Origin: Pseudogymnoascus verrucosus
Lineage: Eukaryota
Length of the DNA stretch: 64,000 bases
Strand: one strand, 5' to 3'
NCBI GenBank assembly: GCA_001662655.1
Contig: KV460272.1
Shown piece after piece: positions 13,590 to 52,303 of the stretch (position 1 is the stretch's first letter; each line of letters begins with the position of its first letter). The notes under the pieces are model-generated. The model was not told where the DNA came from. It ran no database searches and saw only the letters and a program-made list of their open reading frames with translations. The translations under genes were made by a program, and so were the position numbers.

Positions 13590-14225
13590 ATTTTGCTGCA
13601 AGCAACAACCTCGAATGTTTCACAGAGCGATTTATCTCACAAATAGATGGTGGTCTACGTGGTGTTGAAGTATTCGGAGAAGACGAAATTGAGCACATCA
13701 ATGCCACTGAGACTAGCCGCCAAGGCATAACGTGGGACTAGCAGATTTATGTTCATATTCCAGTAATCATTCAACGTCAACGTCCGTCTCACCCAAGACA
13801 TCTCATTTTAAGGGCTTCAGATCGACAGCTCTATTATCTGACAGGTGGGGTTGAGACCCGTTTTTTGATGACTAACTGCCGATGCGGCCAATCAGAGAGT
13901 GTTATGCGAGACAACCACGGACCCTATTCCGAGGCGGAGGATTCTCTCATCAACATTGGGGTCCACATCTCAGCATCTATTCTGAGAATCTTACAACGTG
14001 CCTGCAAACATGTTGGACCCTATATCAAGTTTGCCGATGCTACCAATTAGATATGGCATGACTTGTTAGGGCATGTTTTAAGCCTCGTGGCTCCCCATGC
14101 CTTTCTATTTAAATTTGTGTTCTGTGAAAATATAAATGTGATCAAGGCGCTTATATTTTTAAAAGAGTATAATCTTGTATTTTAAAAAACATATCCTCCA
14201 CCGTCTCACCTCCAATTTTACATCA

Positions 14226-15705
14226 ATGGAGATTTTATCATATTTTATGCTGGTTTCTCTAGCCGTTGTGGCTGTTTATGGTTCGGATTCGGTTGATCTA
14301 CCTCGCTCGTCTCGCCTTACCCTCTCCCAGAAGAAAAGTACGGGATTTCTCCACCTTGACCGACGAGATGGATTGGCTTCTGAAGGAATAAAAATTGATG
14401 CAGTATGTGTCCTGGTCTTTTGCGCCATACTTTTTAACAATTCGATAGGGATTCTGGTACGCTGACTTTACCGTTGGCGGCGCTTCCAACCTCAGTCTTT
14501 TAATCGATACTGGGTCTGGAGATATTGTTGTGAACCCAGGAATCTACATCCCCGGAAAAACATCCGAGAATCTTAATATTACTTTCGAGAATACATATGG
14601 TACAACATCGAAAGATGGCACTGGAAGTGCAACAGTGAGTACCGCCATTCACCCATGGAGCGACGCTAACAATAGAACTTCCACAGATCGTCGGCGACCT
14701 TTATTCCGACAAAGTCATCTTCGGGGGCTTGACGGCAACTCAGATTGTGGGAGCTGCAAATGGGACATCACCACTGCAAAAGTCCGGAATTGCTGGATTT
14801 TCTGGGCAGCGATTCAACCAATTCCCAGCCAGTTCCAATGCCACACCATTCTTTCAATCACTTTGCGATCAAAAGAAAGTCTCCGAATGCCGATTCGGTC
14901 TCGCACTGTCAGATGACGGTACTGGAATACAAATATTGGGAGAACTGGACACTTCTCTGTACACTGGTGATCTAGTCGTAGCACCTATTATTGAAAACTG
15001 GGTCCTTCTCGGCGACCTTGTGGTTGGCGGAGAGGTACAGGAAAGAGACATGCTGATTGAGCTCGACAGCGGAACTGCTACAATAGTTGGGTAAGTAATC
15101 TATGCCTTTGGGCCCTGATTTCTAACGAAAGTAGACCTATCGTCACTGTTTCTGCCATTTTTAACGCAACAGGCATCCAAGGTGTTCTCCGATCTACCAG
15201 CGAGGGTGATTTGCTCACTGGATATTTTCCATGCGACAAGCCCCCAACTGTTGGATTCAACTTTCCACCAAAGACCAATGCTTCTCTTGCTGGCAAAGAT
15301 AGTTTGAGTGCCATCAGCATGAGAAGCTCGACTTTCAACATCCCACTGAACGCATGGGCAGCCGTAGATAATGGCAATAATAACTGCACGGCTGTCCTCA
15401 GCGGCCAGAATTATGAAGCGCATCCAGGACTTTGGGTTATTGGTCAACGTAAGCACTATTGGCTCTCATTTTCTCGCACAAATATTGATGATTTCATAGC
15501 ATTCTTCCAAGGGCTTTACATTGATCATAACCTGGAAAATGGAACTGTTGGATTTGCCAAGCTAAAACGTACCAGCCCAGGGAGGAGTACAACAGCACCA
15601 ACAGCTTCAGTGCCAACGCCAACTGGTGACGCAATAATTCACAAGCATAGCGCTTGGGCAATGTTGGTGTTGGCCTTTAGCTTGGTCGTTGTCGTTACTA
15701 TGTAG
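14226..15705 (+). CDS. Secreted pepsin-like (A1) aspartic protease, probably GPI-anchored (4 introns)
   Basis: Signal peptide, catalytic motifs LLIDTGSG and IELDSGTA, WVIGQ and GTVGFA, then an S/T-rich stalk and hydrophobic C-terminal tail. Confidence 0.9.
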
Positions 15706-16000
15706 GGAGATGTAGCGTTTTACATAGTGTATTCAATAGGAATTGTCTGAATCTCCTGAAACCACTAGTTTAAACCGCCTTCTGTGAATACTCTGCGTCG
15801 TAGGATGAATAACCTAAAATTATATAATAATACAGCTTTTCACGTCTATCACATTCACAGTACCGATTAAAAATAGAGACTTTTTATCTGAGGGTTCAAC
15901 TGGTATGTTTAGATTCACAAATTGATAATAGGACAAAACCACGGCATAGCTGCGACTTGGACGAAGCTATAATGTAAATGTGAAATTATACATGAAGCTA

Positions 16001-17733
16001 TCACAATGCGTCCTTCTCATCTAAGTGGTCAATACGCATCGTAGCCATCACCGTCCTCGCACTTCTCTTCTCCAAACTCTTCTTCACCGGGTTGGGTGCC
16101 TCAAAGACCTCCGCTAGTTCCTCGAGAGTGCGCTCCTTGGTCTCGGGGAAATAGAAATACATCACCACCCACTCAATAAGATCCCAAGCCACAAAAAATG
16201 CATAGAAATAGTAACCAATTTTTGCGAAGGCAGGGCCCGATGCGTACTGAATAATCGTAGAAGCGATCGAAGAGTTGAGATTTCCAATTGCAGTGCCCTT
16301 GGCGCGGGTAGAGGTCGGGAGGGTTTCTGCGATGTACATGCTCTGTAGAGGTGTCCAGGCAAAGGAGAATACTATCCCAAAGACATAGATGAATCCGATG
16401 GAGGCATTGGCAGCGGCCTTGTTCGAAGGGCTGACATGGGCTATATGCGAACAGCCACACATTATTGCGAAGCAGAACGAGCAAAACACAATGCTGTAAA
16501 GGAGAAGTGGTCTGCGTCCTATTTTATCCGTGAGGCGAGCACCGGCGCAAGAGGCGATGAAGCAAATCACAGGGTAGATGGCGTTGAGCACCAACTGGGT
16601 GTGTTGATCATTAATGCCGGCTTGCCTTGCCATCTCGGGGAGATAGTAGGATGTTATACTGTTTCCTGAAATCTGGCCAAACCATGCCATGCCGACAACG
16701 CAAATCAAGCGGCGTCGGGCAGAATGAGTGTTCCATAGCTCATGGTAATCGTACCATTTCTTGTCTGATGCATCGCTACTGATCTGATGGGACATCTCTT
16801 TCATTTGTAGTTGAACGATTGGGTGCGAGACTGAACCCTCCCCGTGGTAGCGTGCAAGGACACTGACAGCTTCTTCAATCCTGTCCTGGGCCATAAGCCA
16901 TCTTGGGGATTCGGGAAGGAACCAAACGCCGACGGCAACCAGAGTAGATGTGAATAACTGACACCAAATTGGAATGCGCCAATTGTAATCGTTCTCATAG
17001 TAACTGCAACCGTAGATAATCCAGCTTGCAATTATGGAACCAATATACCTTGACACTTGTTAGATTTATTTCAGACAAGAATGCATTCGGTATTGTGCTT
17101 ACCAAGTGCAATTGTACAGGCCAGTAAGAGTTCCACGCCAAGAGGGATGAGCCATCTCACTGACATAGCAGGGTGCAGATACACAGCAGAAACTGACGCC
17201 GAAGCCGAGGATAAAACGGCCTGCGAGAAACATTCCGCTATTGACGGATGGCGCTTGGACACATGTGCCGATGATGATAATAATGGCTCCGGTGAACATC
17301 CCCGCGCGGCGGCCCCACATATCATTCACGGGGCCTGTCAGGAAGACAGCAGGAATAGAGCCGATGTTGTACATTGCAAAGACGATTCCCGTGCTAGACC
17401 CGGCCTGGGCACTTGATAAAAACTCCAATCAGCAACTGGGAACATTCTGGGACCGCAAAGGGCCTGGACTTACAGGCCAAAATAGTGCTGATAATTCGTG
17501 AGCGCATTCAAGCCACCCATAAGTGAGCCATCGTAGCCGTTCAAGCACCCGCACAGGTATGCAACAGCGAGAACACCGTACAGTCGAAACATGCTTTTCG
17601 TCCATGGGCTCTGCTTTGTTGCGTCGACATCGTCGGAGAGTTGCAGTGCTTCTCCAGTCAAGCCGATTTTTTCCTTATCGTCTCGTGTTGCATTTTCATA
17701 AAGATGAACGTCTCCTTTGCCATCTTCTGCCAT
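16001..17733 (-). CDS. MFS sugar porter of the lactose permease/cellodextrin transporter clade (2 introns)
   Basis: [58 protein letters not shown] motifs. Confidence 0.9.
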
Positions 17734-18132
17734 GGTGAATTATTCGTGAAAAAAACACAAGGTGACAGGAGAATTGTTGTGATTAAAGCGAAGGCTGCGG
17801 TGGGAATTGGTATCCCTTTGCCAGTCGAAGTGAACTGAAGGACGGAAGGAAGGATGATATGCGGATCATCAGCTCTTTATTATCATTTTACGAGTGGTGG
17901 TACAACTGCGTTCAGGATAGCTTAATTTGCGGGGTAGGAGGCGCCAAGTCTTCCCCGTGGGAAAGATTTAGAGAGAGGGATATTGAAGGCCAAACATAGG
18001 AGACCTGCTCGGGCCGCTGCGGAGTGGTGCTTAATATACCATAAACGAGCCATGTGCCGTGTTGGCTAGTTCGAAATCCTTGTTTTGCAGGTAAGCTATC
18101 TTGCCGTGGACCAGTGACAGGCCAGGTGTTTT

Positions 18133-18157
18133 TTCTCGGTGCCGCCTTCCCCGAGAA
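18133..18157. promoter_or_regulatory. Palindromic CGG-N11-CCG site (TTCTCGG-N11-CCGAGAA) upstream of permease
   Basis: TTCTCGG TGCCGCCTTCC CCGAGAA, with 7-bp perfect inverted arms, ~400 bp upstream of the permease ATG. Confidence 0.55.
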
Positions 18158-18662
18158 GAGGGTGGGATTGGAGTGCGGGGTAGCGGTGGGGTAGAGGGTT
18201 AGAACCATGGGGAGCTGTGGCAGGGGTAAGCTACTAGCTAATTACAGTAGAGCTGTGGCGGTGGAACCACCACAGAGAACAGCCCGCCAGAGAACAAAAC
18301 CCATAACTAAGACAGGTTCAGAGACCGCAGTAGAACGGGCCGAGAAACAAATTATGATGCATTCATGGCAACTGATTTGAGGGGGATGATAGTGCAGGAT
18401 CAAGCTTTTTGTAGCGCCATTTGTTTATTTCTTGCCAGGGCTAGGCCAAAATATTCAGGCTACAACATGCGCCTGTATTTACTTTGAAGTCTCTAACTAG
18501 TATCCGTAATATCCTTGGATTATGATTGTTATCGTGCCTCACAATATTTGTAGCTTCTAAGGTGAAATTTGTATAATAATTATTTTGTCTCTTATATCCC
18601 TCCGCTGCCGCGCACAGAGATAGTGTTGAAATACGGTTTAATTGATAAGTGATGGGCGCATT

Positions 18663-20964
18663 TTAATAATTCCTGGTCATCTCCCGAGAATCCGATCGAG
18701 CCTGATACTCCTGCCTAATAAAATCCTCGATCTCCCCGATCATCCTCAAGCTTTGCGCAACGCTTGGGCTTCTTGACGCATCATTCTCCCCAGGCACCCT
18801 GCTCCATTGCTGGAACAAACCTCTTAAATGACTCCCGAGAGTCAATAGCTCTTCACTTACTTGGTCTCGTAGACCTGGAATCCGACATGATGCAGTCAAG
18901 ATCAACATCCCACCAGTCATGCTCATGCTACATATCCACATATCGATCATAATGGTGTGCACATAACCCCGCAGATTCTGGATATGTAGGATGCAAGCCT
19001 GGAGACATATCTCACATTTGCTGAGAATCTCTTGGCTCACTCCGCCGTTTTCCCAACTTGCGCCGCTATTCCAGTTTTCGAGTACCCATGTCAGGTAAGG
19101 CCTATATATGACGCTCCGGCAGGTCAAATACCGCTGTCTCAAGAAGCCGCCGTGTTGGGTCTGGGTCGGTTCGGTATCTAGAGAGAACTTAAATGGCTCA
19201 GGAAGTAAATCGCGCCATTCGTCGAGCTGATGTGATAGTTCCGAGACCACGGTGGGGAAGCGCGACGGAGATGGGGAGACCCCAGTCGTGGCTGCATATA
19301 GCATGTCATGGACTCGGTTGAGAAGCCGACGCATTGAGATACATGCTAAAAAATAGAGAGAGGAGAGTTCTTCGTCTTCTGACCTTGGAATAGTCAGAGG
19401 CAGAAGAGATGGTGGGGATAAAGGGGTAGCAGGCGTGAACCTGTTGGTTATGGTGTGGGTGTTGTATTGGCCTGGGAGCGGGATTGTGGATTCAATAGAC
19501 GCGATGCCGCTTTCAGGTAGAGCAGCAAACTCTGCAAGGTAATCGCTGCTCTTTGTTAGTTACATTCTCTGTATGCCTGAGGGAGTGGAATGGGGACAAC
19601 CTTTCGAGAATGTAGCAAGACCAGAAAATTCTCCTGAGACACTCATTCTCATCGGGTGAATTAGAAGAACCGTAAGATAATAACAGACGGCACCTCGCGG
19701 CCGTTGTATTTATGTATGACCACGCCTGTAACGGCCTTTGGAGATATGCAAAGTATAAACTATAGGCGTCAATATGGTCTATATTCAGGAATCTAGGGAA
19801 GTACTGACGCAACAAAAAATAAACATTGTGTCGATTCTGTAGATATCTCCAATTGTGTGGTATACAGTCTCTTCAATACACCATCAAAATATATCTCGGC
19901 CAATCTTCTTTGAGAAAGTTGGTATTCCAAGGACTCTGGAGTCAAGGCCTCGGCGTTAAAGAGCAAACTAACAACTTGACTTGCACATCCGAGAGCCATG
20001 ACAAGTAGAGAGATGCAAGAGGAAACACTGTCATCTAGGTTCCCTGAAAGGACTAGATGTTGGACAGCAAGGAGTTTGTCTTTTAACATCGTTGGGTAGA
20101 AGAAATTAATTGATGATTGAAATGCTTCGACTACCTGTTGTACTTCATCAGCACGGAGATATGGTACTGATGTAGATGTCATAGTTCTCAATGACGATCG
20201 GGACTTCTCAAGTTGAAAGATGGGAATATAATTCTGTCGTATTGAGGGGAAGATATCGAAGTGCGGCCAGTCAAGGACCGATTCAGTAGTGGAGGTGTGA
20301 AGACCGGAAAGTACAGCGTTGTGCACACCTTGTGTATCATTTGCAGTTGTTGACTGAGATTGATGATGCGAGGAACGTTCCGCTATGTCATGAGAGTGCG
20401 TTACTTCTGGCGAGATGGCTGGATCTGTTAAGACGCGGTGGCCGAGCATGCCCACGTTTGATGTCTGATCCAGGGGTTAGCAACATCAATTGGCGACCAG
20501 AATAGGGGATTCACAATAATAGCACTCATCTCCTCAAGATGTCGCTCCATGCGCAAAACTCCATCAAGGATCAGGTCACTCTTCCCCTTCCTTCATTCTT
20601 GTGAGTAAGGCATCAATAATGTCAAAACCTTGGCTACTTACGGACCCGCCTCAGCACCATAGTTACATTCTTGGTTTGAGGATAAGCATGTCGCACATGG
20701 TTGCCCTCCATCACATCTAATTTGTAATTAGTTTAATATTGGACACAGGTAGCAATTAGCATTGCGGATCAAACATACCGGATCTTTCTTCGCCTGCAAA
20801 CGTCGCACTATTACAGATTGCAGTCAGCTTCCAGTCAGCACCTGGGTGGTTATAATGATCAAGCATTTCGTTAGTATCTGTAGGGGCACAATATATAACT
20901 GGGGTATTCTTACCGCATGCGCCGCTCGCGACCTAGACAATAGGGGCCTCCGGGGTCTGTTCAT
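18663..20964 (-). CDS. Zn(II)2Cys6 transcription factor with middle-homology region, multi-intron
   Basis: Spliced N-terminus MNRPRRPLLSRSRAAHA/CDVCRRRKIR/CDGGQPCATCLSSNQECNYG. Downstream RRIFWSCYILE and YFLACISMRRLLNRVH motifs. Confidence 0.85.
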
Positions 20965-21687
20965 AGCGGCGAAAGCCCGGGGATTTCTTCTCAGTTATGC
21001 TGGAATATGTGGGGTCATTAGTATGGCACCAGATGGGCAGCACAGTTCACATAAGTATGAGACCTAAATAAATATAGCCCGGTAAAGCAAATTCTTATAG
21101 TAACTGCAGCAGTTGGTTGGTTGGACGAGCAGTGAAGGTTGTAGTGCGGGGATGGGATGCAAGAGCGAACGTCAAAAGGGATTCACGCGCGGTAATTAAC
21201 GGCTCGCTAGTGAGTTTCGGCCAGTAATGGGGATTTCGTGGCTTGCCAACAGTTACCACCTCAACAGATGGAAACGCGGTCCCAGAACACAGAACTAGCA
21301 ACACGTAAAAGTACCAACTTCATATTGCCTATCCCATCCCACTAGAAATGTGGTAACAAATACGAGCTGAAAATTATAACCACTTGAAAAATCCACAGAC
21401 AGTATTTCGCACGTGTGAAGCTCGAGCACAACCGGCTAAATATACGTCGTTCCGTCGAATTATTAGCATAGCTATATGCCTATTGCTAGGCCGTTTTGAT
21501 TTATATAGATTATCGCGCACCACGAAAGAAAGCAACACGAAAACGAATCTCAAAATAGTACCAATGCCATTTTAAGATACGTTTTGAGATTGCGATTTGT
21601 TCCCAGTGTATTGTATGGATTCCTGGTCATGTCATGAGTGTAGAAGTGCTAAAAATAATGGGGAAGCTATAGAGTATTGTGGGGTAA

Positions 21688-25509
<3,822 letters not shown>

Positions 25510-38944: not shown

Positions 38945-40817
38945 CTATTGTCTACGCATCCGCATGTCTTCAATTATCTCTTTAGTAACGCGGCTACGCT
39001 CCATAAGACCTGTGTTCACATGAGTAGGATCCATATGAGAGTCTTGGATAGAAAGCGGCCACGACGACAGGTCATAGACGTCTTCCTCTAGCTCCTTGTC
39101 GTCCAGAGCTAGTGCATGCTGTAATAAGAATTTAACCATCCATTTGTCTAAGCGGTGGGTGTTTGAGGTCTCTGATCGCAGACAACTCCGTTGAAAGACT
39201 ATCAGTCGATTAATCTATGGCAAGTCGTTAGAGTTTCACACATATGCCAGTAAACCCTGAGTAAAATGACTTTATTGTAGGCACAAAAAAAAAGTATTCG
39301 AAAGATAAACACTTACCATAAGCTCCACGCTTGGCCAGTACCGGCGTAATTGCACCAGCGACTCAAAATTAGATTCAATGCGCTGTCGGATATAATCCAC
39401 CTCATTAGGATCACCAAAAAGGAAGGAATGTAGCAACACTGAAGATGAAACAACAGTAACATGGCCGACGATATTGTAGAGTGCTTCTGCTCCGCCATGG
39501 TTACGTGAAGCTTCCAAGATTTCAGAAAAAAGTGTAGCGTGGTGTTTACAGCGCTGGGCATATGCCGCACCATTGGTTGTGAATGGCCGATTCCGATCAA
39601 GATACTGATAATATAGTAGGGTAGCGTAGTGATTGTATCCAAGATGTAGCGCTATAAAGTTACGGCCAAGGCCGCGTTCCACCTGTAGGGTTAGGTTGCT
39701 TAGAGAGTATCTCATAGTGGTCGGAAGGCTCTCCTCAAAGGCAGTTAGCTCTACAGCGGACTCGCGGACAGCGTCTTCAATGGCTTCCTCTTCCCAGATA
39801 GTTGATATGATAATTCGCTTGGTAAGGTCGGAAATATGGCTGTATATGGTAGCCATCTTAACATTATAGCCCCAAAACCCTGGCCTCCATTCAGAAGCTG
39901 GGACATCAGGGTCACCTGGCCGCATGTTTAAAAATGCTTCCTCATCCATAGGGAGTCGAGGTGCTGCGTTTAATATGTCGAATTGACGAGGTAGGCCTGA
40001 CCCACCACTCGCCCAAGTGTCCACCAAATAGCATGTCCACCAGAGACGCAGTTTAGTCTCCCGTGTAATACCATCGTCAGCATCATTCAAGACACTTAGC
40101 TTAGCTATTTGAGCCATACGATTTGCTAAAACTAGCCACTTAATATTAGCTAGCCGCATATTTGTGTGCAGAAAATTTACTTCAACAAACCGAAATATAT
40201 GGACTCGGCATCTGGATCCGAATCCCCAAGACATATATTGCCAATAAGAATACAAGCTTGAATATTTTCAACGCAGGAATGCTCTAGGTCGGATTTTAAA
40301 TGGCGTTTTGCAGCTTCAGTAAAGCTGGGAGCTTGACTTCGGATTTCCGCATCATCTGAAAAACTACTCATATATCAGAAAATGCAGCAAAATGAGAGCT
40401 CGCAAATTGTTTGAGGCTGATAGGAATATAGGAAACCACGTCATCTTTAAAACACAGGAGAGCAAGAGGATATATTCCATACCGTGCACCTAAACCTAGT
40501 ATGCTAAAAAGCACAACTGGGGCGACAGAGCCATTGGCGACAGCCTCTCTTATGGATGGTTCATGGAATAGCGCATGGGGCTTGTCATGCATGTATCGAA
40601 GGTAGAGTTCGGTGAGCGTTTCAGCAACATTTTTTGGGATATCATCTTGGTTGAGTGGCGATGGACTTTTTGTAGATTGCGGCGATATGGTGGTTTTTGG
40701 AGGCACACGTGAACAGGGCAAATTCCGGTGAACGCATGAAGAGCATGCCGTAGGCCCACTCCAGATGTCACATCTCCTTTTGCCCTTGCGGCAGTGCTCG
40801 CATGCTTTTCCAGTCAT
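38945..40817 (-). CDS. Zn(II)2Cys6 transcription factor with fungal-specific TF domain
   Basis: ACEHCRKGKRRCD....ACSSCVHRNLPC, HDKPHALFHEP, ENIQACILIG, RETKLRLWWTCYLVDTW. Spliced 3' exons. Confidence 0.88.
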
Positions 40818-41317: not shown

Positions 41318-43359
41318 TTATGAATGAACCGTGATGTTGACGACATTTTCACCCACGCTCCGCGGATAGAATTCCAGCATCAAGCTGACTGGTTGCCCCG
41401 CAGCGATAATCTGCTGCCCTCCAGAATCATAGATAATAAAATTAGAGGAATCAAAGCCATAGTTCCCCTGGGTCCAGCGTCCCTGTTGCAATGGTCCTGA
41501 TGAGGTTGTCCAAGCGTTTGTAAGATAAGTACCGTCTGCCAACACGGCTCGTACTGTGGCTCCCTTTGCAAGCCCCGCGTATGAAATCGGAATTTCCATG
41601 TCCGTAGCTTGGGCAGTATACGAGGTAGCACCGATTGTTGGCGTACCATATTGGACGATTTGCAAACTCAAATCTGCGCCCTTGCTAAACTGCAACGTTA
41701 ACGTATCCTTAATTCCAGCAGTACTACTGGCGTCGTAGAAAGGTGATAGGTAAGCCATCGAGAGAGTCAGTACACCGCCAGAGGAGAAAGTGAACTGGCT
41801 AGTTGTTAAGCTGGTGCCAGCCGAATTTTTAATCGAAGCAAGGGTATTACCATTTAGAATGTATGATACGGACTGGTCAGTAACCGGAGCTCCAATGGCG
41901 TGAAACAAGTATGCGGAGCCGGATTGCGAAGTGGCACTTAGATCGGTAGTTGATTCTGGAAGAGAATTGACCGTATCGGCAGCTGCGTTTATAAGAATAT
42001 CAATTACGGTTTCGTCATACCAGGTATGAGTCGAGCAATCCAGGAGGTCGGCGCTGTTATCAAAAACGAAATGCGAGAAGTCGTATTAGTTGCGGTTCGG
42101 ACAAAGAAATCAAAGCATTTCCATCGTGCTGCTGTCTCTGTGTACGCAGGTGTTGCATCCCACTCGCCAATGAAGGTCGGGATGCTTGTGAAGTTGTCAT
42201 GAAAGAGGGAGAAGTCCAAATCAAGGGCAGCTTTATCATCGTCGGAACCCCAAATCGTGGTGCCCCAATCACCGAAAAACAAATGGGTCTGCATCAATTA
42301 GCAGTTGCAAGAAAGTAGATTTGCAAGAAAGTAGATATATTTAACACTTACATGGGGAGTAGTAATGAATCTGCAAACCCCATGGCTGGTTTGGGTATTT
42401 ACTGCCTCGAGAAAAATACTGGCTGGTTAAAGCGGGAGTATTTCCCAAACCACAAAGTGAAACCACCCGCTGCGGGTTAAAACCACCAGCAATGTTGATG
42501 GCATCCAAAAAAATATCGTTCAGTGCGTTAAGCTCCACTGCCTCCGACTCAGTTGATCCGGCGGGCTCGTTGATTGATTCGAAAAGGAGCTTTGATGACT
42601 TGCATCCTAGTTTCACACCAACCTGCGTCCAAATTGACTTGAACTTCTCCTCAATGAGGGTGTGGTTTGCGCCCGAGGTTGCCAAGTTAGCCCATAACTG
42701 AGAGTCGTGGTGGACATTAATTATAGCGTAGAAGCCTCGATCAAGGACTTGGTCAACAACAGCCTCAACTCGGTCCAGCCATGTACTGTCGATAGTCCAT
42801 GGCGAGGAATCGACAGAGATGTGCCCAAACCAAGTAACGAGAACTCGTATGCTTTAAAAACCTCTCGCAAGAACGTCATCAAAGGTATCAGACGTGACGG
42901 GCGGGTTTTTCCAGGAGTCTTCATTTGTGAAGGACTCAAGACTGTTTCCAAGGTTTCACCCTGGAGTCAATGCAGCAAATGCATCGGATGCAGTGATAGG
43001 GGCAAATGATGTAGTGCATGTAGGAATGAGTGCAGTCTGGCACTGGTACCAATCTAAATACATTGGTCAGTCTTCAAGTGAAGGATGACTTGTGTTTCAT
43101 GGCTTACAATCATTCGCGAAGACACATGTCTCTCCGCTATTGCATGCTATCTTTCCAGTGTAATTCAACCCACCGCCTATTAAAAAGTTATAAACTGCTG
43201 ACATAATTGAATTGGGGAAGGAGGAGAAATATTGGATTGATCGGATGCATGGTAAAAGGAGTACGCACATTGCTCCCCAAGCCCTTTCTGGGCCATTACT
43301 CCCGGCATAGCTATGCCAACCACAGTTAAGCCTGCCCTACAGGACTTATAGAAGCTCAT
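41318..43359 (-). pseudogene. CBM1-GH5 endoglucanase with C-terminal Ig/CBM-like domains, inactivated
   Basis: Signal peptide, CBM1 (QCGGLNYTG..ACNSGETCVFANDYWYQC), PG*NLGN (TGA 42956-58), GF*SIRV (TAA 42854-56), INVHHDS, FESINEP, QIHYY, FIGEW. Frameshift near 42085. Confidence 0.9.
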
Positions 43360-43877: not shown

Positions 43878-43902
43878 TCGTACCGGAGCTGGACCGGTAC
43901 GA
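43878..43902. promoter_or_regulatory. Perfect palindrome TCGTACCGG-N7-CCGGTACGA in GH5/GH3 divergent promoter
   Basis: tcgtaccgg agctgga ccggtacga. A near-identical copy lies at 49173-49197. Confidence 0.7.
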
Positions 43903-44451
43903 GGGAGAGCACAGACCTAGGTCGTCAAGATATAGTTTACAAGCCATGTTAATATGAATTACGCCGAGATCGCTTTATGATATTCCGTGCCGGATTCTAA
44001 ATTAGACATAGCTTCAGCATATCCTGTCAAAAGCCAAGATAATCCCAGGGAGAAACTTCCAGCCACTGAATTTAGAAAATGGAACTTCTTTTAACCCCGC
44101 ATTGTTTGGACGATGGAACTCCACAACTTGCCCGGAGCTCATCTTAATTCATATGCTCTGCCTCGACCCGGTCATTACCCCATAGATACCCCGCATCCGA
44201 ATGAAGGCCATGAATTAGGCAATCTTGTGTTCAACCTCATTTTTACTCTTAGCTCTCACTTACCCCTCTCTAGGCACAGTTGGCAGCTCATTACCTTTAT
44301 CCCGACATTCACGAGGTACAATGTCACCGGAGAGGAACCTACGATCTTGGGACACCTGTATATAATTGCCTGTCCGCTCGAATCAAATGAATTTCCACAT
44401 CATAGGATTGCACCCTTTCAAGGTCTCACTGGAGCATTTGTTTCCCCTAAG

Positions 44452-46846
44452 ATGCTTTTTCAGTTCTTTCCATCATGCCGTCAGTTGGTGACCGGAGCAG
44501 CTCTTGCGTCGCTAATGGGCACCGGGCATACAGCAGCCTCACCCGCCCAGAACGAACCCAGAACAAATGCCATCTATCAAGACGCGTCAAAGCCAGTAAA
44601 AGCTCGTGTCGCCGACCTTTTATCACGTATGACCTTTCTTGAGCAGCTCGCACAAACTCGCAATGTCGGGGGCATTCTCGGAGAAAATGCGTCGTTCGAC
44701 AACACAACTGTTTATTCATTTAATAACGGGCAAGGAGGCGGGTCAATATGTAAGTTGCAATTTTATTTACATAATCTTAGAACTCTCTGCTAACAAAAAA
44801 AAAATAGCTTTCGGCAACTATCAGAACCCAGCTTATCTCGCAGCAGCAACACTTGAGGATGTGGTTCTTCAATTTCAGAAGAATGACAGACTTCACGTTC
44901 CTCTAATTAATGTAGCGGATAGTGTTAATGGTGTGACTCTTCTCAACACCACACTGTTTCCGGCTACATTGAGCATGGGCCAGTCATGGAACATCGATCT
45001 CTATGGAAAAGTCGTTCAAGCTATGTCCATTGAAAACCATGCTGTCGGAATTCACTGGGTCTTGAGTCCTGAGTTGGATCTGGCTGTTGAGCCACGATAT
45101 GGACGAGTTGGCGAAATGTACGGCGAAGATAGATACCACGTGTCACGCTTCGGGGTTGCATACGTCAAAAATATGCAAGATACGGATTCGAAGGGATTCT
45201 CACGAGTCGCTACGACTGTTAAACACTGGGTTTATGGATCATCTCTCGGTGGTATCAATGAGGCCAGGATTCTCGGTGGGATTAACGACTTCTACAACGT
45301 GCACTCTTACCCATATATGGCAGTATTTGAGGAGGCGAACCCAATGGCTCTCATGCCATCCTATTCATCCTACGACAATGTACCAATGACTACCAACATT
45401 CAATACACAAAGAACGTTATTCGAGATCTGCTCAAATTTGATGGAGTTATCATCTCCGACTACGCTGCAATCTCACAAGTTCTTAGCACACAGCATACTG
45501 CGAATAACATCCAAGCGGCTGGATTGAAGGCGCTCGCAGCCACAGTTGATCACGAACTTGGCCCACCAAATCAATCTGGCATGGAAGCTCTTTCAATACT
45601 TTCTAAAAATCCAACTGTTGCAAAAGCAGTACGCGAAGCGGCTCGAAGGGTCTTGACTTTGAAATTTCTCACCAAAACCTTCGACGAACCTATCCCAGAT
45701 TTGAAGAAGCTGAACAGCTCTCTACGAACTGCAGATGCCATGCAGAGAAATTTGGATATTACCCGCGAGTCTATGGTGCTTCTCAAAAACGACGGCATCT
45801 TACCTTTGAAAAGCTCTCTTCTTTTAAAGGTCGCCGTCATTGGTCCCATGGCCGACATCATCAACCCTGGTTCTTACGCGGCAAGTGACTACTCCACAGG
45901 TTCAACAATACTGAGTGGAATAAAGAAGATATCGTCCGACGTTACCTTCTCACGGGGTTGCTTCCGCAATAATGACACCGATTTTGATACTATGAAGGCT
46001 GAGGCTGTTGCAAACGCTAGGAATGCGGGCCTCGCTGTCGTTGCCCTCGGATCCGTGGCACAAATAGTCGACACAAACGCAAACGACCGCACTGACGGTG
46101 AAGGTTTTGATCATGCGAACTTGGACTTCCCTGGTCCACAAAACGAGCTCCTCAAGGCTATTGTCGAGACTGGCACCCCAGTCGTGCTCATAGTCAGTGG
46201 TGGCCAAGCCTTTTCTATGGAATATGCTGCAAATGCGACGAATGCAATCATCCATACTTTCCTCCAAGGCGAACTAGGCGGAGACGTCTTGGCTGAAATT
46301 ATTACTGGGAAAACGAACCCCAGTGGAAAACTCACAGTCTCCATCCCCCGCCTTTCATCTGCAGTGCCCATCTACTACAACTATATCAACAGTGACCGGA
46401 AACAGGTCGGCTGGCAGCAGGTATACACCGACTACCAGTCACCTGTACTTGATCGCCTTGCACTATATCCCTTTGGACACGGTCTCAGCTATACCAAGTT
46501 TGATATCTCAGGCGTCACTGTGACAAATAACACGTCAACTCATGGTCAAATCACTGTCAAGGCAATCGTCAAAAACACTGGCTCGGTGCAGGGAAAAGAA
46601 GTCGTACAGGTATACTTCAACCAATTCGCGCCAGACATCGAGAGACCTGTTAAAAATCTTATCCGGTTTACAAAGATTGATCTCAAACCCGGGGCCTCTA
46701 CTACCGTCAGCTTCAGCATTCCAGTTAGCGAGTTGGGCTACTTCGTTAATGGAGTTAAGCAAGTGGATGCCGATCAGTACACTATTTTTGTGGGATCTAG
46801 CTCGGATGAAGCCGATTTAACTGCAACTAAAATAGTAGTTAAATAA
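44452..46846 (+). CDS. Secreted GH3 beta-glycosidase (beta-glucosidase/xylosidase, BglX-like; intron ~44750-44808)
   Basis: Signal peptide, TLFP, SPELDL..EPRYGRVGEMYGED, TVKHW, nucleophile IISDY, ESMVLLKND, DGEGFD, PSGKL, YPFGHGLSYT, C-terminal Fn3-like domain. Confidence 0.93.
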
Positions 46847-47182
46847 ATAAAAGCCGCGAAAGGAGTGGACGTGTGTGTTTGGCTTTTACTGCAACTATGG
46901 TAGTAGTACATAATTACAAACCTCAAAAAGTATTTCAAATATTAAATATCTCCTCGAACATGTCTCTAACCAAAATGTGACTAAAATTATGCCACTTTAT
47001 AAATTTGATTGAAATATAAATATAAATATTGTTTTTCGTGCCTTTTGTAGCCTAATACATGATATTTTTCAACACAAACTCCATGCAAACTCCATCTACT
47101 AGAGTGGTACAACTAAAAACAAATCGCGAGTTTGATAGGTTTATACGGTGAATTGCGTCTAAGAGTCTAAATTCTAAGTTTG

Positions 47183-48799
47183 TTAGATGATATGATCCTT
47201 TAGGACCACCCTTAGTAAATAGCTCGGTGTGCAACTCCAAGCATGACAATAACTATTGTTGTGGCAATCCCCGTACGGACTGCTTCTTGGATCTTCACTA
47301 TCAAAGAATTCCCAGAATGTGTCCGCACCTGCTCTAGCCATTCCTCCCCAGTATTCACGCATCAACTTCAAGCAGTCTTCTTGACCACCACAACGAGCAA
47401 GACCTTCAGCGACGTGGTGGTATGCGTAAGGAGTGAGGGGTTTGACAGCTTCTGGGTTCGCCATGGCGGCCTTGATTGCAGTAAGGCAAGTTTCAGCATC
47501 AGCGACTCCGGCGAGGGCGAGCCATGCTTGACTTATCCACGAAATTTGGCGATCAGGGCCACTGACAAAGACCCCAAGAGATGGATCATAGAATGACATT
47601 GCAGCCGCTGTCATTTTCTCTACAATATCCAAAAATGGCGGAGGTTTTGAGACAAGTAAAGCCAATTTGTTGACTTCCTTGCAACAGAAAAGCACGACGC
47701 CATGCATGCCAGCTGCGGTATCTAATCCCTTGGACCAATCCAGAAATTTCCACGCCTTAGTTGCGTCAGGATTGAATTTTCCGGCCTTATCTAGATGCAA
47801 TAATGCCATCTGCATACTGCTTATAACAGTGGGCCAGAGCTCAATTGCGGTTTGCACATCCCCAGACGCAACTGTATATTCGTAAACAGTTGGGCCAAAT
47901 AGTGCGTCATAGTCCACAATGTAATCCGAGGCCGCAGAAAGCTTTGGTTTCTCGAAAACGCAAGCAGGAATACTGCCATCCTCACGAGGAAGCGCTGCGA
48001 ACATGTATAAACAGCGCTTGACCAAGCTGTAATCCTTGAACGTACAGTAATTGGTCAAAGCCTGAAGCCGTAAATCACCCATCCATAATCTTCGATCTCG
48101 TCGTGGTCCATCTTCGAACACTGTCTGCATGCAATTCCGAAGGGTTTCTTGGCTGATTCGATCAATGGAAACAAGTTCTTTATCGCTGGTTTTCAAGATA
48201 TCGACACCTGACATCGTGGGAGGCGACACGGCGCTCACGGCTCGTATTTTGATGTCTGAAAAACGGATCTTGTATTTTTGAGAAGTGTCAATGATTTCGA
48301 TTTTGACATAGCGAAATGCGTATCTTCGTGGCATTTCGACATCTGTTGGGAGCCAGTCCACGTTTATGACTTCGTCCGGGAGCCAGCTCGTGCTGATCCA
48401 AGTGTTGCATGGGTGAAGATTATCGGTAACATCATACGGTATTTCGCCGAACGTGATCCGTAATCGAGCAGGCGCATCGATATTGACACCATCCACACTC
48501 AAATGAAAAGAAAGGTAGCCAACCCGGTGAGAACCGAAGTCTAAAATAAACTGGTCTCCTCGTCCATAGGAAATCGAGGAGAGCTGCTCGATGGTGTATT
48601 TTGGAAGCCCTTTGCACTTAAAGAATTCTTCTGGATCTGGCTGGAACTCAACGACAGAAAGAGGGCGATCTATCCATTCGTGCAGTATCGGCGTCAATTC
48701 CTCTGCGATTCGGGCGAAGCCATGATTGAAAATTGTCTTCGGCACCACCTCGACCTTCTGGTTTTCTGGAACCTCCAGAACTTCACAGATTGACCCCAT
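47183..48799 (-). CDS. Short-type GH78 alpha-L-rhamnosidase-like (alpha/alpha)6 glycosidase, intronless, no signal peptide
   Basis: LDFGSHRVG, RRYAFRY, VFEDGPRRDRRLWMGDLRLQA, FLDW, YWGGM...GADTFWE, NSYCHAWSCTP. Confidence 0.88.
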   Translation of the reverse strand: MGSICEVLEVPENQKVEVVPKTIFNHGFARIAEELTPILHEWIDRPLSVVEFQPDPEEFFKCKGLPKYTIEQLSSISYGRGDQFILDFGSHRVGYLSFHLSVDGVNIDAPARLRITFGEIPYDVTDNLHPCNTWISTSWLPDEVINVDWLPTDVEMPRRYAFRYVKIEIIDTSQKYKIRFSDIKIRAVSAVSPPTMSGVDILKTSDKELVSIDRISQETLRNCMQTVFEDGPRRDRRLWMGDLRLQALTNYCTFKDYSLVKRCLYMFAALPREDGSIPACVFEKPKLSAASDYIVDYDALFGPTVYEYTVASGDVQTAIELWPTVISSMQMALLHLDKAGKFNPDATKAWKFLDWSKGLDTAAGMHGVVLFCCKEVNKLALLVSKPPPFLDIVEKMTAAAMSFYDPSLGVFVSGPDRQISWISQAWLALAGVADAETCLTAIKAAMANPEAVKPLTPYAYHHVAEGLARCGGQEDCLKLMREYWGGMARAGADTFWEFFDSEDPRSSPYGDCHNNSYCHAWSCTPSYLLRVVLKDHII

Positions 48800-48998
48800 C
48801 GGAAAATGCAAGCTGGGATTTGAAGTGCTTGGGTCTAAAATCCAACATGAAAATAACACTGAAAAATATGTATTAATGACTAGACTTGTCGTTCTGCAAT
48901 AAAATGCCAGCCAAATTAGATGTTGGGGAGAGTGTTCATTTCCCCATGAAAAATCGAGGCTCTATCAGGCGATAAATGGTCTTCTGCATGAATAAGGA

Positions 48999-49454
48999 GT
49001 GGGGAAGCCGCTTTCCCGGGGGGAAGAATTGGAGAACAGAAACATGCCTGACCATCTTTCTCGGAAATCACTATCACGAAAGAACACAAGCATTAGAGTG
49101 ACTGAATGTGGACTGAGCAAGATTCCGGAGTTCCCACGGTCCAGGCCTATCCTATTCTAGCCTAGCTCCTGCTCGTACCGGCGTCGCCCCGGAACGAGGA
49201 GAATTGTGTGGGGTACAGGGTCAGTGCTGGGGTACGCAGGAGCCGCATTTCCCCGCCAAGGCGTATATTGTGGCAAATGAACTATCCCGTTTCGGTTCAA
49301 CATGCCCTAACTCGTGATATTATGCCGCGGGTTCGGCTTGAGACACGACGAGATTTTACACGGCTGGCTCGCTCCTGGACGTCCATTGTTAGCTTCATTA
49401 CATTCGGCTCTGTCGAATAGAACCCGGGGACTCTGGGGTCTGCGGGGTGCGGGG
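48999..49454. promoter_or_regulatory. Cluster of CreA/Cre1 (SYGGRG) carbon-catabolite-repression sites
   Basis: GTGGGG 48999 and 49208; CTGGGG 49227 and 49433; CCCCGC 49251; GCGGGG 49442 and 49449. Confidence 0.55.
49173..49197. promoter_or_regulatory. Palindrome TCGTACCGG-N7-CCGGAACGA in GH78/MFS divergent promoter
   Basis: tcgtaccgg cgtcgcc ccggaacga. 17 of 18 arm positions are identical to 43878-43902. Confidence 0.7.
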
Positions 49455-49694
49455 TGTACAAGGGGCTCCATTGCTCATGGTTGTGGGCAATAATTCTTTG
49501 GTTTCCATGTGGCTTCTCACCGGCAGATCTGCTTGTAGTTATAACCCACGGTTCCTCCCCATCCATTGAGGACACCAAGCGCTTGCTCTCTTTACCTTCG
49601 ACAGCCAACTTCTCCCTTTCTATTTCGAAGGCAAAGGCAAAGGCATCAAACTTTACGTCGTCGAAATTGTCACTTCCGTGGCTGAACCGCCGCC

Positions 49695-51473
49695 ATGGGG
49701 AAAGCCGTAACCATCGGATCCGGTATCTTCTTGTCCATTGGAGGTAAGCAGGCTTTTACTGTCCAAAGACGTGCAATATGCACAAGTACATGTGAATGAA
49801 GCACAGGTGCTAATTAATTCTACTAGGCTTCTTGTTTGGTTATGACAGTGGTGTGATAACTTCGACTATTGGCCAAGAGACGTTCATTGAGTACTTTGGC
49901 AACCCAAATGCCTCCGAAACAGGTGGCATTGTATCATCTTTCACCGGAGGGGCTATCATCGGTGCATTATCGGTGTCATGGCTTGCAGATAGTCTAGGCC
50001 GCAAGAAGTCCGTCTTCATCGGAGGAGTCATTTCATCTTTCGGCTGTGCGCTACAAGCCGGTGCCGCCACCATTGGTATGCTGATTGCTGGCCGTTTCAT
50101 TGCTGGAATCGCCGTTGGTCTTCTATCCGCTATTGTGCCTATGTACTGCGTAAGTTGCACATTCTGGCCAGGCGCTATCCTATCGCAGTTAAACTGACTA
50201 TTGTTTAATAGTCCGAAATTGCTGAGGCCTCCTATCGTGGGGCCCTTAGCGGCTTACTCCAATTTATGTTGTCCTGGGGCTTCTTCGCTGCCCAATGGAT
50301 TGGATATGGTTGTAACTACAGTAGTACTGCGTTCCAATGTAGGGCCTCTGTTCAAACCACCCAATGGCATAGCTGACGCAGTCAATAGGGCGCTTCCCTC
50401 TAGCATTCCAAGTTGTTCCAGGCCTTGCACTTGCGGGTGGAATATGGTTCCTTCAGGAGAGCCCAAGATGGCTTATGGAGAAAGATCGCCATGATGAGGC
50501 CCGAGAGGCACTTCGTCTCCTCCATGGAAACGGCCACAACGAAGAATATCTTGAGCTCGAATACCGCGAAATCCATGACACAATTGTTGCCGAGAAACAA
50601 GTTTCCGTGCGTTCCTGGGCTGGAATGGTTTCGAAGCCCGCCTGGAGGCGCCGCCTTGCTTTGGGAATGGGAATCCAGGCATTCGGACAGCTTTCCGGTA
50701 TCAATGTTGTCAACTATTATGGCGTCCCAATCTATAAGCTTCTCGGCATCGACACCCGTACATCGCTTATGATCATTGGTATCTCTGGGTCTCTTTCCAT
50801 CGTTTACTGTGCCCTTGGTCTGTACTTCTTGGAGCGTGTCGGCCGCATAAAGCCGATGATTTTCTCCGCTATTGGCTGTGCACTCACGCTGCTTGTTAAT
50901 GCCATCCTCAGCCAATACTACGTCACCAGTGCAAACACCGAAAGCGCCAATGGAAATGCACTGCGGGCAATGGTTGCCATGAACCTTGTCTTCAGTTTCT
51001 TCTTCACCTTCACCGGAATCATAACTTGGGTGTACCCAGCAGAAATCTTCCCGGTTGAGATTCGCGCTCGCGGCAACTCGCTTTCGACACTTATGAACTG
51101 GTGTCTCGGGTTGCTCATTGGCCAGATCTCACCCTTGGCGCTTGATGCTGTCGGATTCCGCTACTTTTATGCCTTCTTCGTCTTTAACCTATGCGCTGCC
51201 ATTTGCTATATCTTTTTATTCCCTGAGTAAGTCATCCTCTTTCACATATTATATTACCATTATCATTGCATACAAATTACTAACATCTGGCTTTCTCACA
51301 GGACGAAGGGTAAAACACTTGAGCAAATGGATACCATATTTGGTGACCAGCTCGTCCCACACGCGCTGGAAGGCCCAGAGGCGGCCGATGCAGCCCTGAA
51401 AATCTTTCAGGAGAAGCATGCTGCTACCGCCGAACAAGAGGAGCACGCCGATGAAACTGAGCCAAAGGCTTAA
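49695..51473 (+). CDS. MFS sugar porter (4 introns)
   Basis: GGFLFGYDSGVI, DSLGRK, VPMYC/SE, QESPRWL, GQLSGINVVNYY, WVYPAEIFP..IRARG, FPE/TKGKTLEQMD. Confidence 0.92.
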
Positions 51474-51868: not shown

Positions 51869-51985
51869 ATATGGCAAGAACAATTACCAAGCAAACTCAG
51901 TCGCAGCCTCCTCAGAACTTTCAATCCCTATATGGAAAGAACGATTACCAAGCAGACCCAGTCGCAGCTTCCTCGGAACTTTCAA
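51869..51985. repeat. Imperfect direct repeat, two ~56-bp copies, period 61
   Basis: atatggcaagaacaattaccaagcaaactcagtcgcagcctcctcagaactttcaa versus atatggaaagaacgattaccaagcagacccagtcgcagcttcctcggaactttcaa. Confidence 0.8.
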
Positions 51986-52303
51986 GCCACCGATCCTTCT
52001 CATCGCCGGTGCTTCTCGTCACCTAGCCTCTAAGGCCGATCGTGTAATAGGACGATAGAAGTCCCTTCCTAGGCTTGTAGCGATTGCAATTGTTTAATCC
52101 GGGTAACTTACTCGCCCACTAATCACACCCACTTAATTCTGGAAGAGTTTTATTTTACGCCCGCTACCATATTCGGCACTATCATTCAGAGTGAGCTAAG
52201 TTTTGTATATAGGAGAGTAGATATGATGCCTGGTCCTCTCGAGCTTGTATGAAGCAATTATATTCGCCTTTCACGCTATATCTCACTTCAGTCGTTACAT
52301 ATT

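What the first reader, a model, noticed from the sequence alone, without database searches (positions are those of the whole stretch)
43878..49197. Shared 25-bp palindromic operator in both divergent promoters of a glycosidase/transporter cluster
Seen: TCGTACCGG-agctgga-CCGGTACGA at 43878-43902 (between the GH5 pseudogene and GH3) and TCGTACCGG-cgtcgcc-CCGGAACGA at 49173-49197 (between GH78 and the MFS porter). The arms match at 17 of 18 positions, the spacers differ but are both 7 nt, and each site lies ~375-550 bp from both flanking ATGs. Conserved arms around a free spacer fit a dimeric protein-binding site better than a recent duplication. Known: Zn2Cys6 dimers bind CGG triplets at fixed spacing. 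Inference: this is the operator of a local regulon, probably bound by the adjacent TF at 38945-40817. I do not recognise this extended motif as a described site.
Basis: partly seen in the sequence, partly recalled or inferred. Interest (0 to 1): 0.8.

Follow-up and report, generated by a model that had tools for sequence, protein, structure and literature searches.

The report
Palindromic switch of fungal glycosidase genes
A short mirror-image DNA motif sits in front of a few sugar-cleaving and sugar-import genes in a soil fungus and in one related fungus, and is most likely the docking site of the zinc-cluster regulator encoded next door: a new example of a familiar kind of fungal gene switch.

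Summary
Observation confirmed base for base. The element is real. TCGTWCCG-N9-CGGWACGA was found three times in the 30-Mb Pseudogymnoascus genome: the two cluster promoters, and 666 bp upstream of an unlinked, intact GH3 paralogue. Between the two GH3 promoters the arms match 17/18 and the spacer 1/7, with third codon positions at 38%. One of four fungal GH78 orthologue promoters (L006, otherwise unalignable) keeps both arms at the same relative place with a 6-nt spacer; it belongs to the GH78 clade where the TF is linked, and the three without the motif do not. So the conserved unit is an everted pair of half-sites SCGGWACGAR, not an inverted CGG-N7-CCG; the regulon is not purely local; spacing is fixed within the genome but not across lineages. 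The adjacent Zn2Cys6 protein is intact, linked to GH78 in four other genomes, has no coiled coil behind its zinc cluster and is modelled as a homodimer (0.81, best control 0.00). That it binds this site is inferred, not shown. Not found in the papers searched. A new member of a known kind (cluster-specific zinc-cluster activating site), with a testable motif for an uncharacterised TF family.

The parts
43878..43902 (.). Operator site 1: TCGTACCG-N9-CGGTACGA, between the GH5 pseudogene and GH3
   Evidence: arms kept and spacer replaced in the promoter of the paralogous GH3 at G000:C6
49173..49197 (.). Operator site 2: TCGTACCG-N9-CGGAACGA, in the divergent GH78 / MFS promoter
   Evidence: counterpart with N6 spacer in orthologue L006
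43786..43989 (+). About 200-bp promoter module around site 1 that is shared with the unlinked GH3 paralogue; its 3' 64 bp also occur, without the operator, at G000:C29
   Evidence: 62/75 identical upstream of the site and 70/88 downstream (aligned columns)
38945..40817 (-). Zn2Cys6 transcription factor, 530 aa, four exons, intact; zinc cluster residues 6-35, flexible linker, Fungal_trans domain; candidate binder
41318..43359 (-). GH5 + CBM_X2 pseudogene (in-frame stops, frameshift)
44452..46846 (+). GH3 beta-glycosidase with a hydrophobic N-terminus (signal peptide judged by eye), two exons
47183..48799 (-). GH78 alpha-L-rhamnosidase of the two-domain KoRha type, single exon, no evident signal peptide
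   Evidence: PDB 4XHC, E 1.8e-125
49695..51473 (+). MFS sugar porter, divergent from GH78

Best explanation
The motif is an upstream activating site for a homodimeric Zn2Cys6 factor, most likely the one encoded at 38945-40817. Each zinc cluster reads one half-site S-CGG-W-ACGA-R pointing outward (everted). The dimer is held by the middle-homology domain, and the zinc clusters hang on a variable Pro/Ser-rich linker with no coiled coil, which fits the long half-sites and the change of spacer between lineages (N9 here, N6 in L006). One site serves the divergent GH78 / MFS pair, one serves GH3, and a third serves an unlinked GH3 paralogue that kept the site after an old duplication. The regulon probably imports and strips rhamnose/glucose-bearing plant glycosides or oligosaccharides. 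Shown: motif, copy number, positions, conservation pattern, gene content, TF-GH78 linkage by adjacent accession numbers. Modelled: TF fold and homodimer. Inferred: protein binding, which protein, activation rather than repression, and the inducer.
For: Three exact genome hits for 8-bp arms over spacers 5-14, all N9, reversed-pattern control 0; chance of one further exact N9 site about 0.01. The third hit is 666 bp upstream of the closest GH3 paralogue (57% aa, open frame; third codon positions 250/665). Arms 17/18 against spacer 1/7 between the GH3 promoters, Fisher p 2.6e-4. L006, a GH78-MFS orthologue pair (GH78 75%, MFS 80-85%), has CTCGTACCG-N6-CGGTACGAG about 335 bp upstream of GH78 in a promoter that blastn aligns to none of the other six promoters; expectation 2e-5 over the four orthologue promoters. 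CGGTACGAG is the only 9-mer common to the four motif-bearing promoters; 0 of 2000 shuffle sets share any 9-mer. L006, the window and the TF-linked records fall in one GH78 clade (99/96, 13 of 25 rows); the 3 motif-less loci are outside it. TF and GH78 have neighbouring numbers in Pseudogymnoascus VKM F-4517, F-4515, 23342-1-I1 and Cadophora sp. MPI-SDFR-AT-0126. AlphaFold2 model pLDDT 86.6, no helix between residues 32 and 55; stretch from the last Cys to the conserved HDKPH motif 36-57 aa in 15 homologues. Homodimer of residues 56-530: score 0.81, best of 3 controls 0.00, contacts agree at least 93%, pLDDT 86; the mark was reached by 21 of 30 solved homodimers and 0 of 23 monomers of microbes, on eukaryotes by 17 of 29 and 0 of 30, but by only 1 of 7 without an older solved relative.
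Against: No binding, expression or knockout data. 3 of 4 orthologue promoters have no half-site, and they form few independent contrasts. The L006 contig (3.9 kb) carries no TF, so motif and TF were seen together in one genome only. TF linkage is patchy inside the clade: Tricladium has GH3 next to GH78 but no Tricladium, Halenospora or Coleophoma TF was listed (only 479-2000 aa searched), and the Cudoniella homologue (39%, g1426) is not next to its GH78 (g6246). The genome has 7 other matches to the TF at 28-39%. Site 3 is homologous to site 1 by descent, so it is a footprint and not an independent origin; part of the shared module also occurs at C29 without the operator, unexplained. Relaxed genome counts do not exceed reversed-pattern controls (3 vs 3, 3 vs 5, 7 vs 15), and a fourth exact 8-bp-arm pair with N15 lies in a longer inverted repeat on C33. 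The homodimer pass may echo the solved Cep3 dimer, the nearest fold (TM about 0.5, 10-12% identity).
Confidence: 0.63

Rival explanations
1. The site is a real operator but is read by another, unlinked factor (one of the TF's paralogues, or a general rhamnose/glycoside regulator); the neighbouring TF has other targets.
For: Linkage is the only tie between this TF and the motif; 7 other family matches in the genome; GH3-GH78 pair in Tricladium with no TF listed; more distant TF homologues sit by other genes, e.g. fused gene models with an amidase in Fusarium oxysporum.
Against: Only three sites genome-wide, two within 10 kb of this TF; TF-GH78 adjacency kept in four other genomes of two genera; the RhaR site CGG-X11-CCG (PMC4245848, passages) is absent from both cluster promoters and from L006.
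Confidence: 0.24
2. The palindromes are relics of promoter-fragment duplication or of a small mobile element and have no present function.
For: Sites 1 and 3 sit in about 200 bp of shared DNA at about 80% identity, and a 64-bp part has an 88% copy at C29 next to unrelated genes. The GH5 beside site 1 is decaying.
Against: The spacer (1/7) is far more diverged than its flanks (about 80%) and the arms (17/18), which neutral decay of a recent copy does not give. Sites 1 and 2 share no alignable flank. The arms survive in L006, where the rest of the promoter does not align. Module searches gave only 2 other genomic places (lower bounds).
Confidence: 0.07
3. The element acts through structure (DNA cruciform or RNA hairpin in a long 5' leader or a small RNA) and not through a sequence-reading protein.
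For: Site 1 and the L006 site are perfect 9-10-bp inverted repeats; loop length varies (7 vs 4); in L006 the innermost pair is C-G where site 1 has G-C.
Against: The 8-bp core is the same sequence in 7 of 8 half-sites, with no compensatory change; site 2 and site 3 each carry a pairing-breaking mismatch that the consensus tolerates. No Rfam match near gathering score in five loci.
Confidence: 0.06

Closest known systems
Leu3 / LeuB site CCG-X4-CGG (everted Zn2Cys6 site; table in PMC12941744, passages)
   Same: Everted CGG pair in promoters of a small metabolic regulon; Leu3 is also the best PDB sequence hit of the TF's zinc cluster, weakly (E 7e-4).
   Different: Spacer 9 (or 6), and five further conserved bases (WACGA) outside each CGG; target genes are glycosidases.
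RhaR / PDR-1 site CGG-X11-CCG of Aspergillus nidulans rhaA (PMC4245848, passages)
   Same: Zn2Cys6 control of alpha-L-rhamnosidase genes through a symmetric CGG site.
   Different: Inverted, 11-nt spacer; RhaR has a predicted coiled coil behind the cluster. That motif is absent from both cluster promoters and L006, present once in the C6 promoter.
TerR of the Aspergillus terreus terrein cluster (PMC4360782, passages)
   Same: Cluster-encoded Zn2Cys6 factor without an N-terminal coiled coil, with sites in a bidirectional promoter found by motif search.
   Different: TerR reads direct repeats TCGGHHWYHCGGH, mostly as a monomer, and did not bind inverted half-sites or a shorter spacer.
Cep3 of the yeast CBF3 complex (PDB 6F07, 2VEQ)
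   Same: Nearest solved fold of the TF (TM about 0.5); a zinc-cluster protein that dimerises through its large helical domain (dimer recalled, not from a call).
   Different: 10-12% identity; Cep3 is a kinetochore protein, not a catabolic regulator.
Bacterial RhaA-GluA-GalA deglycosylation cluster of Arthrobacter sp. S41 (as described in PMC12640052, passages) and Klebsiella KoRha (PMC4690510, passages)
   Same: GH78 plus GH3 in one cluster for stepwise removal of rhamnose and glucose; KoRha, the closest solved relative of this GH78, removes rhamnose from rutin in vitro.
   Different: Bacterial; no shared regulator; the substrate of the fungal enzymes was not tested.

Membership tests
Gal4-type Zn2Cys6 transcription factor (gene 38945-40817) | Six-cysteine binuclear cluster CX2CX6CX5-12CX2CX6-8C at the N-terminus | tested here: met
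   PF00172, E 6.9e-07; pattern matched
Gal4-type Zn2Cys6 transcription factor (gene 38945-40817) | Middle homology (Fungal_trans) domain | tested here: met
   PF04082, E 1.6e-11 on P0130
Gal4-type Zn2Cys6 transcription factor (gene 38945-40817) | Lysine between Cys2 and Cys3 that contacts CGG (Gal4 K17, K18 per PMC4245848) | tested here: inconclusive
   Loop reads RKGKRR: the K18-equivalent is K, the K17-equivalent is G; the register against Gal4 is recalled, not aligned here
Gal4-type Zn2Cys6 transcription factor (gene 38945-40817) | Coiled coil right behind the cluster that fixes spacing | tested here: not met
   Model has coil at residues 32-55, pLDDT under 50 at 42-50; the modelled dimer interface is at 135-141, 161-178, 214-221. 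TerR also lacks it, so this does not exclude the protein from the family
Zn2Cys6 dimer-binding site (everted type) | Pair of CGG triplets in defined orientation | tested here: met
   CCG...CGG invariant in 4 of 4 sites; the inner inverted CGG...CCG is lost in site 3 and L006
Zn2Cys6 dimer-binding site (everted type) | Fixed spacer length | tested here: inconclusive
   N9 in 3 of 3 promoter sites of this genome; no indel listed at site 2 in runs X7 and X17; N6 in L006
Zn2Cys6 dimer-binding site (everted type) | Located upstream of co-functional genes and conserved against neutral background | tested here: met
   335-666 bp upstream of GH78, MFS or GH3 starts; arms 17/18 vs spacer 1/7; but absent in 3 of 4 orthologue promoters
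Zn2Cys6 dimer-binding site (everted type) | Direct binding and induction that depends on the site | not testable with these tools
   Needs EMSA, DAP-seq or reporters
RhaR / Gal4-type site | CGG-X11-CCG | tested here: not met
   0 in both cluster promoters and in L006, 1 in the C6 promoter
Transposon / MITE terminal repeat | Many dispersed copies with shared internal or flanking sequence | tested here: not met
   3 motif copies; sites 1 and 2 share no flank; module has 2 other partial places; the tool gives lower bounds. Target-site duplications were not examined
Known structured RNA | Rfam match or compensatory stem changes | tested here: not met
   One match at E 0.62, 20 bits against a gathering score of 40, away from the site; no compensatory change in the 8-bp core

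The most novel reading that the evidence does not exclude
An uncharacterised Zn2Cys6 family dimerises through its middle-homology domain and reads two long (10-bp) everted half-sites with zinc clusters on flexible tethers, so that the spacer can jump between lineages (9 to 6 bp, about a third of a helical turn) with the half-site unchanged, possibly in step with linker length; it runs a split regulon for uptake and intracellular de-rhamnosylation of plant glycosides, and the site travelled with a 200-bp promoter module that outlived synonymous saturation.
Probability: 0.3. Interest if true: 0.6.

Novelty: new member of a known kind. Interest (0 to 1): 0.4.

Why it matters
Most fungal zinc-cluster factors have no known site or inducer (general knowledge). 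This gives an unusually specific motif (three genome hits), a candidate factor, and a defined target set that includes a gene on another contig, so one EMSA and one deletion would settle a regulon. If the factor holds, it is a compact inducible switch for a rhamnoside-type signal, a second route to rhamnosidase control beside RhaR, and a natural case for asking how spacer length changes in a factor without a coiled coil. The kind of system (cluster-specific activator with a CGG pair in divergent promoters) is well known, which caps the surprise.

Tried and rejected
Footprinting with public runs (4 of 21 listed runs laid on 49080-50150): inconclusive. X7 spans the stretch (54 other letters in 1071) and none of the 40 rows shown falls in 49158-49218, but at that divergence an unchanged 25-mer is not rare, and spacer and arms are both unchanged. 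X17 has 40 other letters in 49080-49464 of which only 8 are shown (82 rows hidden), so its site cannot be read; X8 starts at 49195 and X11 does not cover the site. No RNA holder listed. TF search in prokaryote genome contigs: 1 weak hit, not followed. Direct-repeat arrangement of half-sites: 2 genome hits against 6 control, not pursued. The 4 other 7-bp-arm hits (N0, N3, N15, N19): at least three lie in open frames or a longer hairpin, rejected as regulon members. No site in the TF's own promoter: outside the two operators the window has one full half-site, at 9643. The quick tree made L006 sister to the TF-linked Cadophora; the careful tree does not resolve this, so only the wider clade is claimed. 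Fusarium graminearum homologue FGSG_09075: no paper listed it; its neighbour FGSG_09076 appears in RNA-silencing papers (listing only). PMC10522338, recalled as describing a fungal glycosidase cluster, gave no such passage in the main text. Earlier scan findings: none. Not in print as far as searched: half-site strings (2 unrelated papers, listing only), spacing notations; the library lacks most subscription papers, and no supplementary files (where DAP-seq motif tables would sit) were searched.
Full report
Observation. Both 25-mers are present exactly as written. They lie 374-550 bp from the four flanking start codons. No other place in the window matches within 3 mismatches, against 0.02 expected. 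A test that does not presuppose the motif found this as the only pair of equal-spacer gapped palindromes with at least 17/18 arm identity; 1 of 200 simulated windows had any such pair, though the simulations were poorer in palindromes (153 vs 221).

Setting. The window is fungal; the TF's third exon is identical to a protein named VE01_10043 of Pseudogymnoascus verrucosus. The cluster reads TF(-), GH5+CBM_X2 pseudogene(-), site 1, GH3(+), GH78(-), site 2, MFS porter(+). The GH78 is closest to Klebsiella KoRha among solved structures (E 1.8e-125), which removes rhamnose from rutin in vitro (PMC4690510, passages). The GH3's best solved relatives are bacterial-type beta-xylosidases and beta-glucosidases, so its substrate is open.

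Genome-wide. In 30.2 Mb, TCGTWCCG-N(5-14)-CGGWACGA gave 3 hits, all N9, control 0; allowing one mismatch at N9 added none (control 5); the 9-bp-arm pattern at up to 2 mismatches gave the same 3 (control 3). The tool gives lower bounds. With 7-bp arms and spacers 0-20 there were 7 hits (control 15), 3 of them the N9 sites; one of the other four has full 8-bp arms at N15 inside a longer inverted repeat upstream of a ferric-reductase-like gene. Raw counts at relaxed settings are thus not above background; what is non-random is the common spacer and where the three N9 sites lie.

The third site. It is 666 bp upstream of the closest paralogue of the cluster GH3, on contig C6. That gene has an open frame with one extra intron, 57% amino-acid identity, and 250 of 665 third codon positions identical, close to saturation. 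The two GH3 promoters still share about 200 bp: 62/75 identical columns upstream of the site, 17/18 in the arms, 1/7 in the spacer, 70/88 downstream. A recent neutral copy would not leave the spacer that much more diverged than its flanks, so I read the module as constrained. It is a footprint by descent, not an independent origin. A 64-bp part of the module has an 88% copy at C29 between unrelated genes and without the operator; I cannot explain it.

Orthologues. A metagenome scan with a GH78 alignment kept 80 of 527 relatives; four fungal-level loci had the upstream region. L006 (GH78 75%, divergent MFS 80-85%) has CTCGTACCG-CCGAAG-CGGTACGAG about 335 bp upstream of GH78. blastn found no alignment of this promoter with any of the other six, yet a global alignment places the site opposite site 2. 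Chance expectation over the four promoters is 2e-5; CGGTACGAG is the only 9-mer common to the four motif-bearing promoters, and 0 of 2000 shuffle sets share any 9-mer. L005 and L007 (GH78-MFS pairs with MFS at 67-74%) and L004 (no MFS) have no half-site. In a 25-row tree, the window, L006 and the TF-linked records share a clade (99/96), and the three motif-less loci are outside it; this is about one contrast, not many. Laying contigs of four public runs on site 2 was inconclusive because most rows of the most diverged run were hidden.

What the consensus is. The eight half-sites read S-CGG-W-ACGA-R outward. Sites 2 and 3 each carry a mismatch that breaks pairing, and the core shows no compensatory change, which points to sequence reading by a protein; Rfam gave nothing.

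Which protein. The neighbouring TF is intact, has a regular zinc cluster and Fungal_trans domain, and has accession numbers next to GH78 in Pseudogymnoascus VKM F-4517 and F-4515, two away (GH3 between) in 23342-1-I1, and next to it in Cadophora sp. MPI-SDFR-AT-0126; adjacency of numbers is taken as linkage. Against: Tricladium has GH3 next to GH78 but no TF from it, Halenospora or Coleophoma was listed (which searched only 479-2000 aa); the Cudoniella homologue is elsewhere; and the genome has 7 other matches at 28-39%. The AlphaFold2 model (pLDDT 86.6, pTM 0.82) shows no helix between residues 32 and 55; in 15 homologues the stretch from the last cysteine to the HDKPH motif is 36-57 residues, 41 here and 57 in the Cadophora protein. 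Residues 56-530 were modelled as a homodimer with score 0.81 against a best control of 0.00, contacts agreeing at least 93%, pLDDT 86, interface at 135-141, 161-178 and 214-221; the mark was reached by 21 of 30 solved homodimers and 0 of 23 monomers of microbes, on eukaryotes by 17 of 29 and 0 of 30, but by only 1 of 7 lacking an older solved relative. The nearest solved fold is Cep3, whose dimer is recalled, so the pass may reflect likeness. It supports a dimer that suits a palindrome; it says nothing about which DNA is bound.

Mechanism, as I would bet. A dimer joined by the middle domain places two tethered zinc clusters on outward-facing half-sites; a rhamnose-bearing glycoside or oligosaccharide (inferred from the enzymes) activates it; MFS imports, GH78 removes rhamnose inside the cell, and the GH3 enzymes remove glucose or xylose outside. 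Odds: real protein-bound element about 0.87; bound by the linked TF about 0.63.

Comparison. Known sites tabulated in PMC12941744 (passages) include LeuB CCG-X4-CGG, PrnA CCGG-N-CCGG, RhaR CGG-X11-CCG, AmyR/InuR CGG-X8-CGG, FUR1 CCGACGG; none matches. RhaR's site (PMC4245848, passages) is absent from both cluster promoters. TerR (PMC4360782, passages) is a precedent for a cluster factor without a coiled coil, but reads direct repeats. Searches for the half-site strings and spacing notations found nothing relevant, nor did by their listings; supplements and subscription papers were not covered.

Verdict. A real, conserved and apparently undescribed site of a familiar type, with a good candidate factor and one odd feature (same long half-site, different spacer in a relative, seen once). 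New member of a known kind; interest 0.4.

Noticed in passing
window 43926-43989; G000:C29:68676-68739 (L109); G000:C6:328559-328640 (L110): A 64-82-bp non-coding block just 3' of site 1 has copies at 88% (C29, between unrelated genes, no operator) and 79% (C6 GH3 promoter). Origin unexplained.
   Followed up: partly
G000:C33:84794-84822 (L122): TCGTTCCG-N15-CGGAACGA inside an inverted repeat with arms of about 24 bp, about 250 bp before a ferric-reductase-like frame.
   Followed up: partly
window 41318-43359: GH5 + CBM_X2 gene with in-frame stops and a frameshift; in two other Pseudogymnoascus records it is annotated fused to the TF (P0214, P0216), probably gene-model errors.
   Followed up: partly
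window 49741-49825: A short contig of run X11 joins across the first MFS intron (GT..AG, depth 5.7), a weak hint that a relative's orthologue is spliced; the run's kind is not on record.
   Followed up: no
window 47183-48799; L008-L083: The fungal GH78 is single-exon and 42-52% identical to many GC-rich metagenome relatives and close to Klebsiella KoRha; a bacterial origin of this fungal family is possible, untested.
   Followed up: no
window 12521-25506: A second sugar-related group: Zn2Cys6 (Fungal_trans_2) TF at 12521-13477, sugar porter at 16004-17059, GH2 beta-galactosidase at 21688-25506 with two in-frame stops or short introns at 22849 and 24301-24339; it lacks the motif.
   Followed up: no
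window 51869-51988: Two tandem copies of a 59-bp stretch (88%) downstream of the MFS gene.
   Followed up: no
window 49205-49215; L006 about 25 bp beyond the site: On the GH78 side of site 2 (window about 49143-49149) and of the L006 site the word ATAGGCC recurs at a similar distance; possible second element.
   Followed up: no
L005:1985-2870 and L007:5155-6050: The two motif-less GH78-MFS promoters share several conserved blocks with each other (78% over 131 bp, 77% over 53 bp), which suggests a different regulator in that clade.
   Followed up: no
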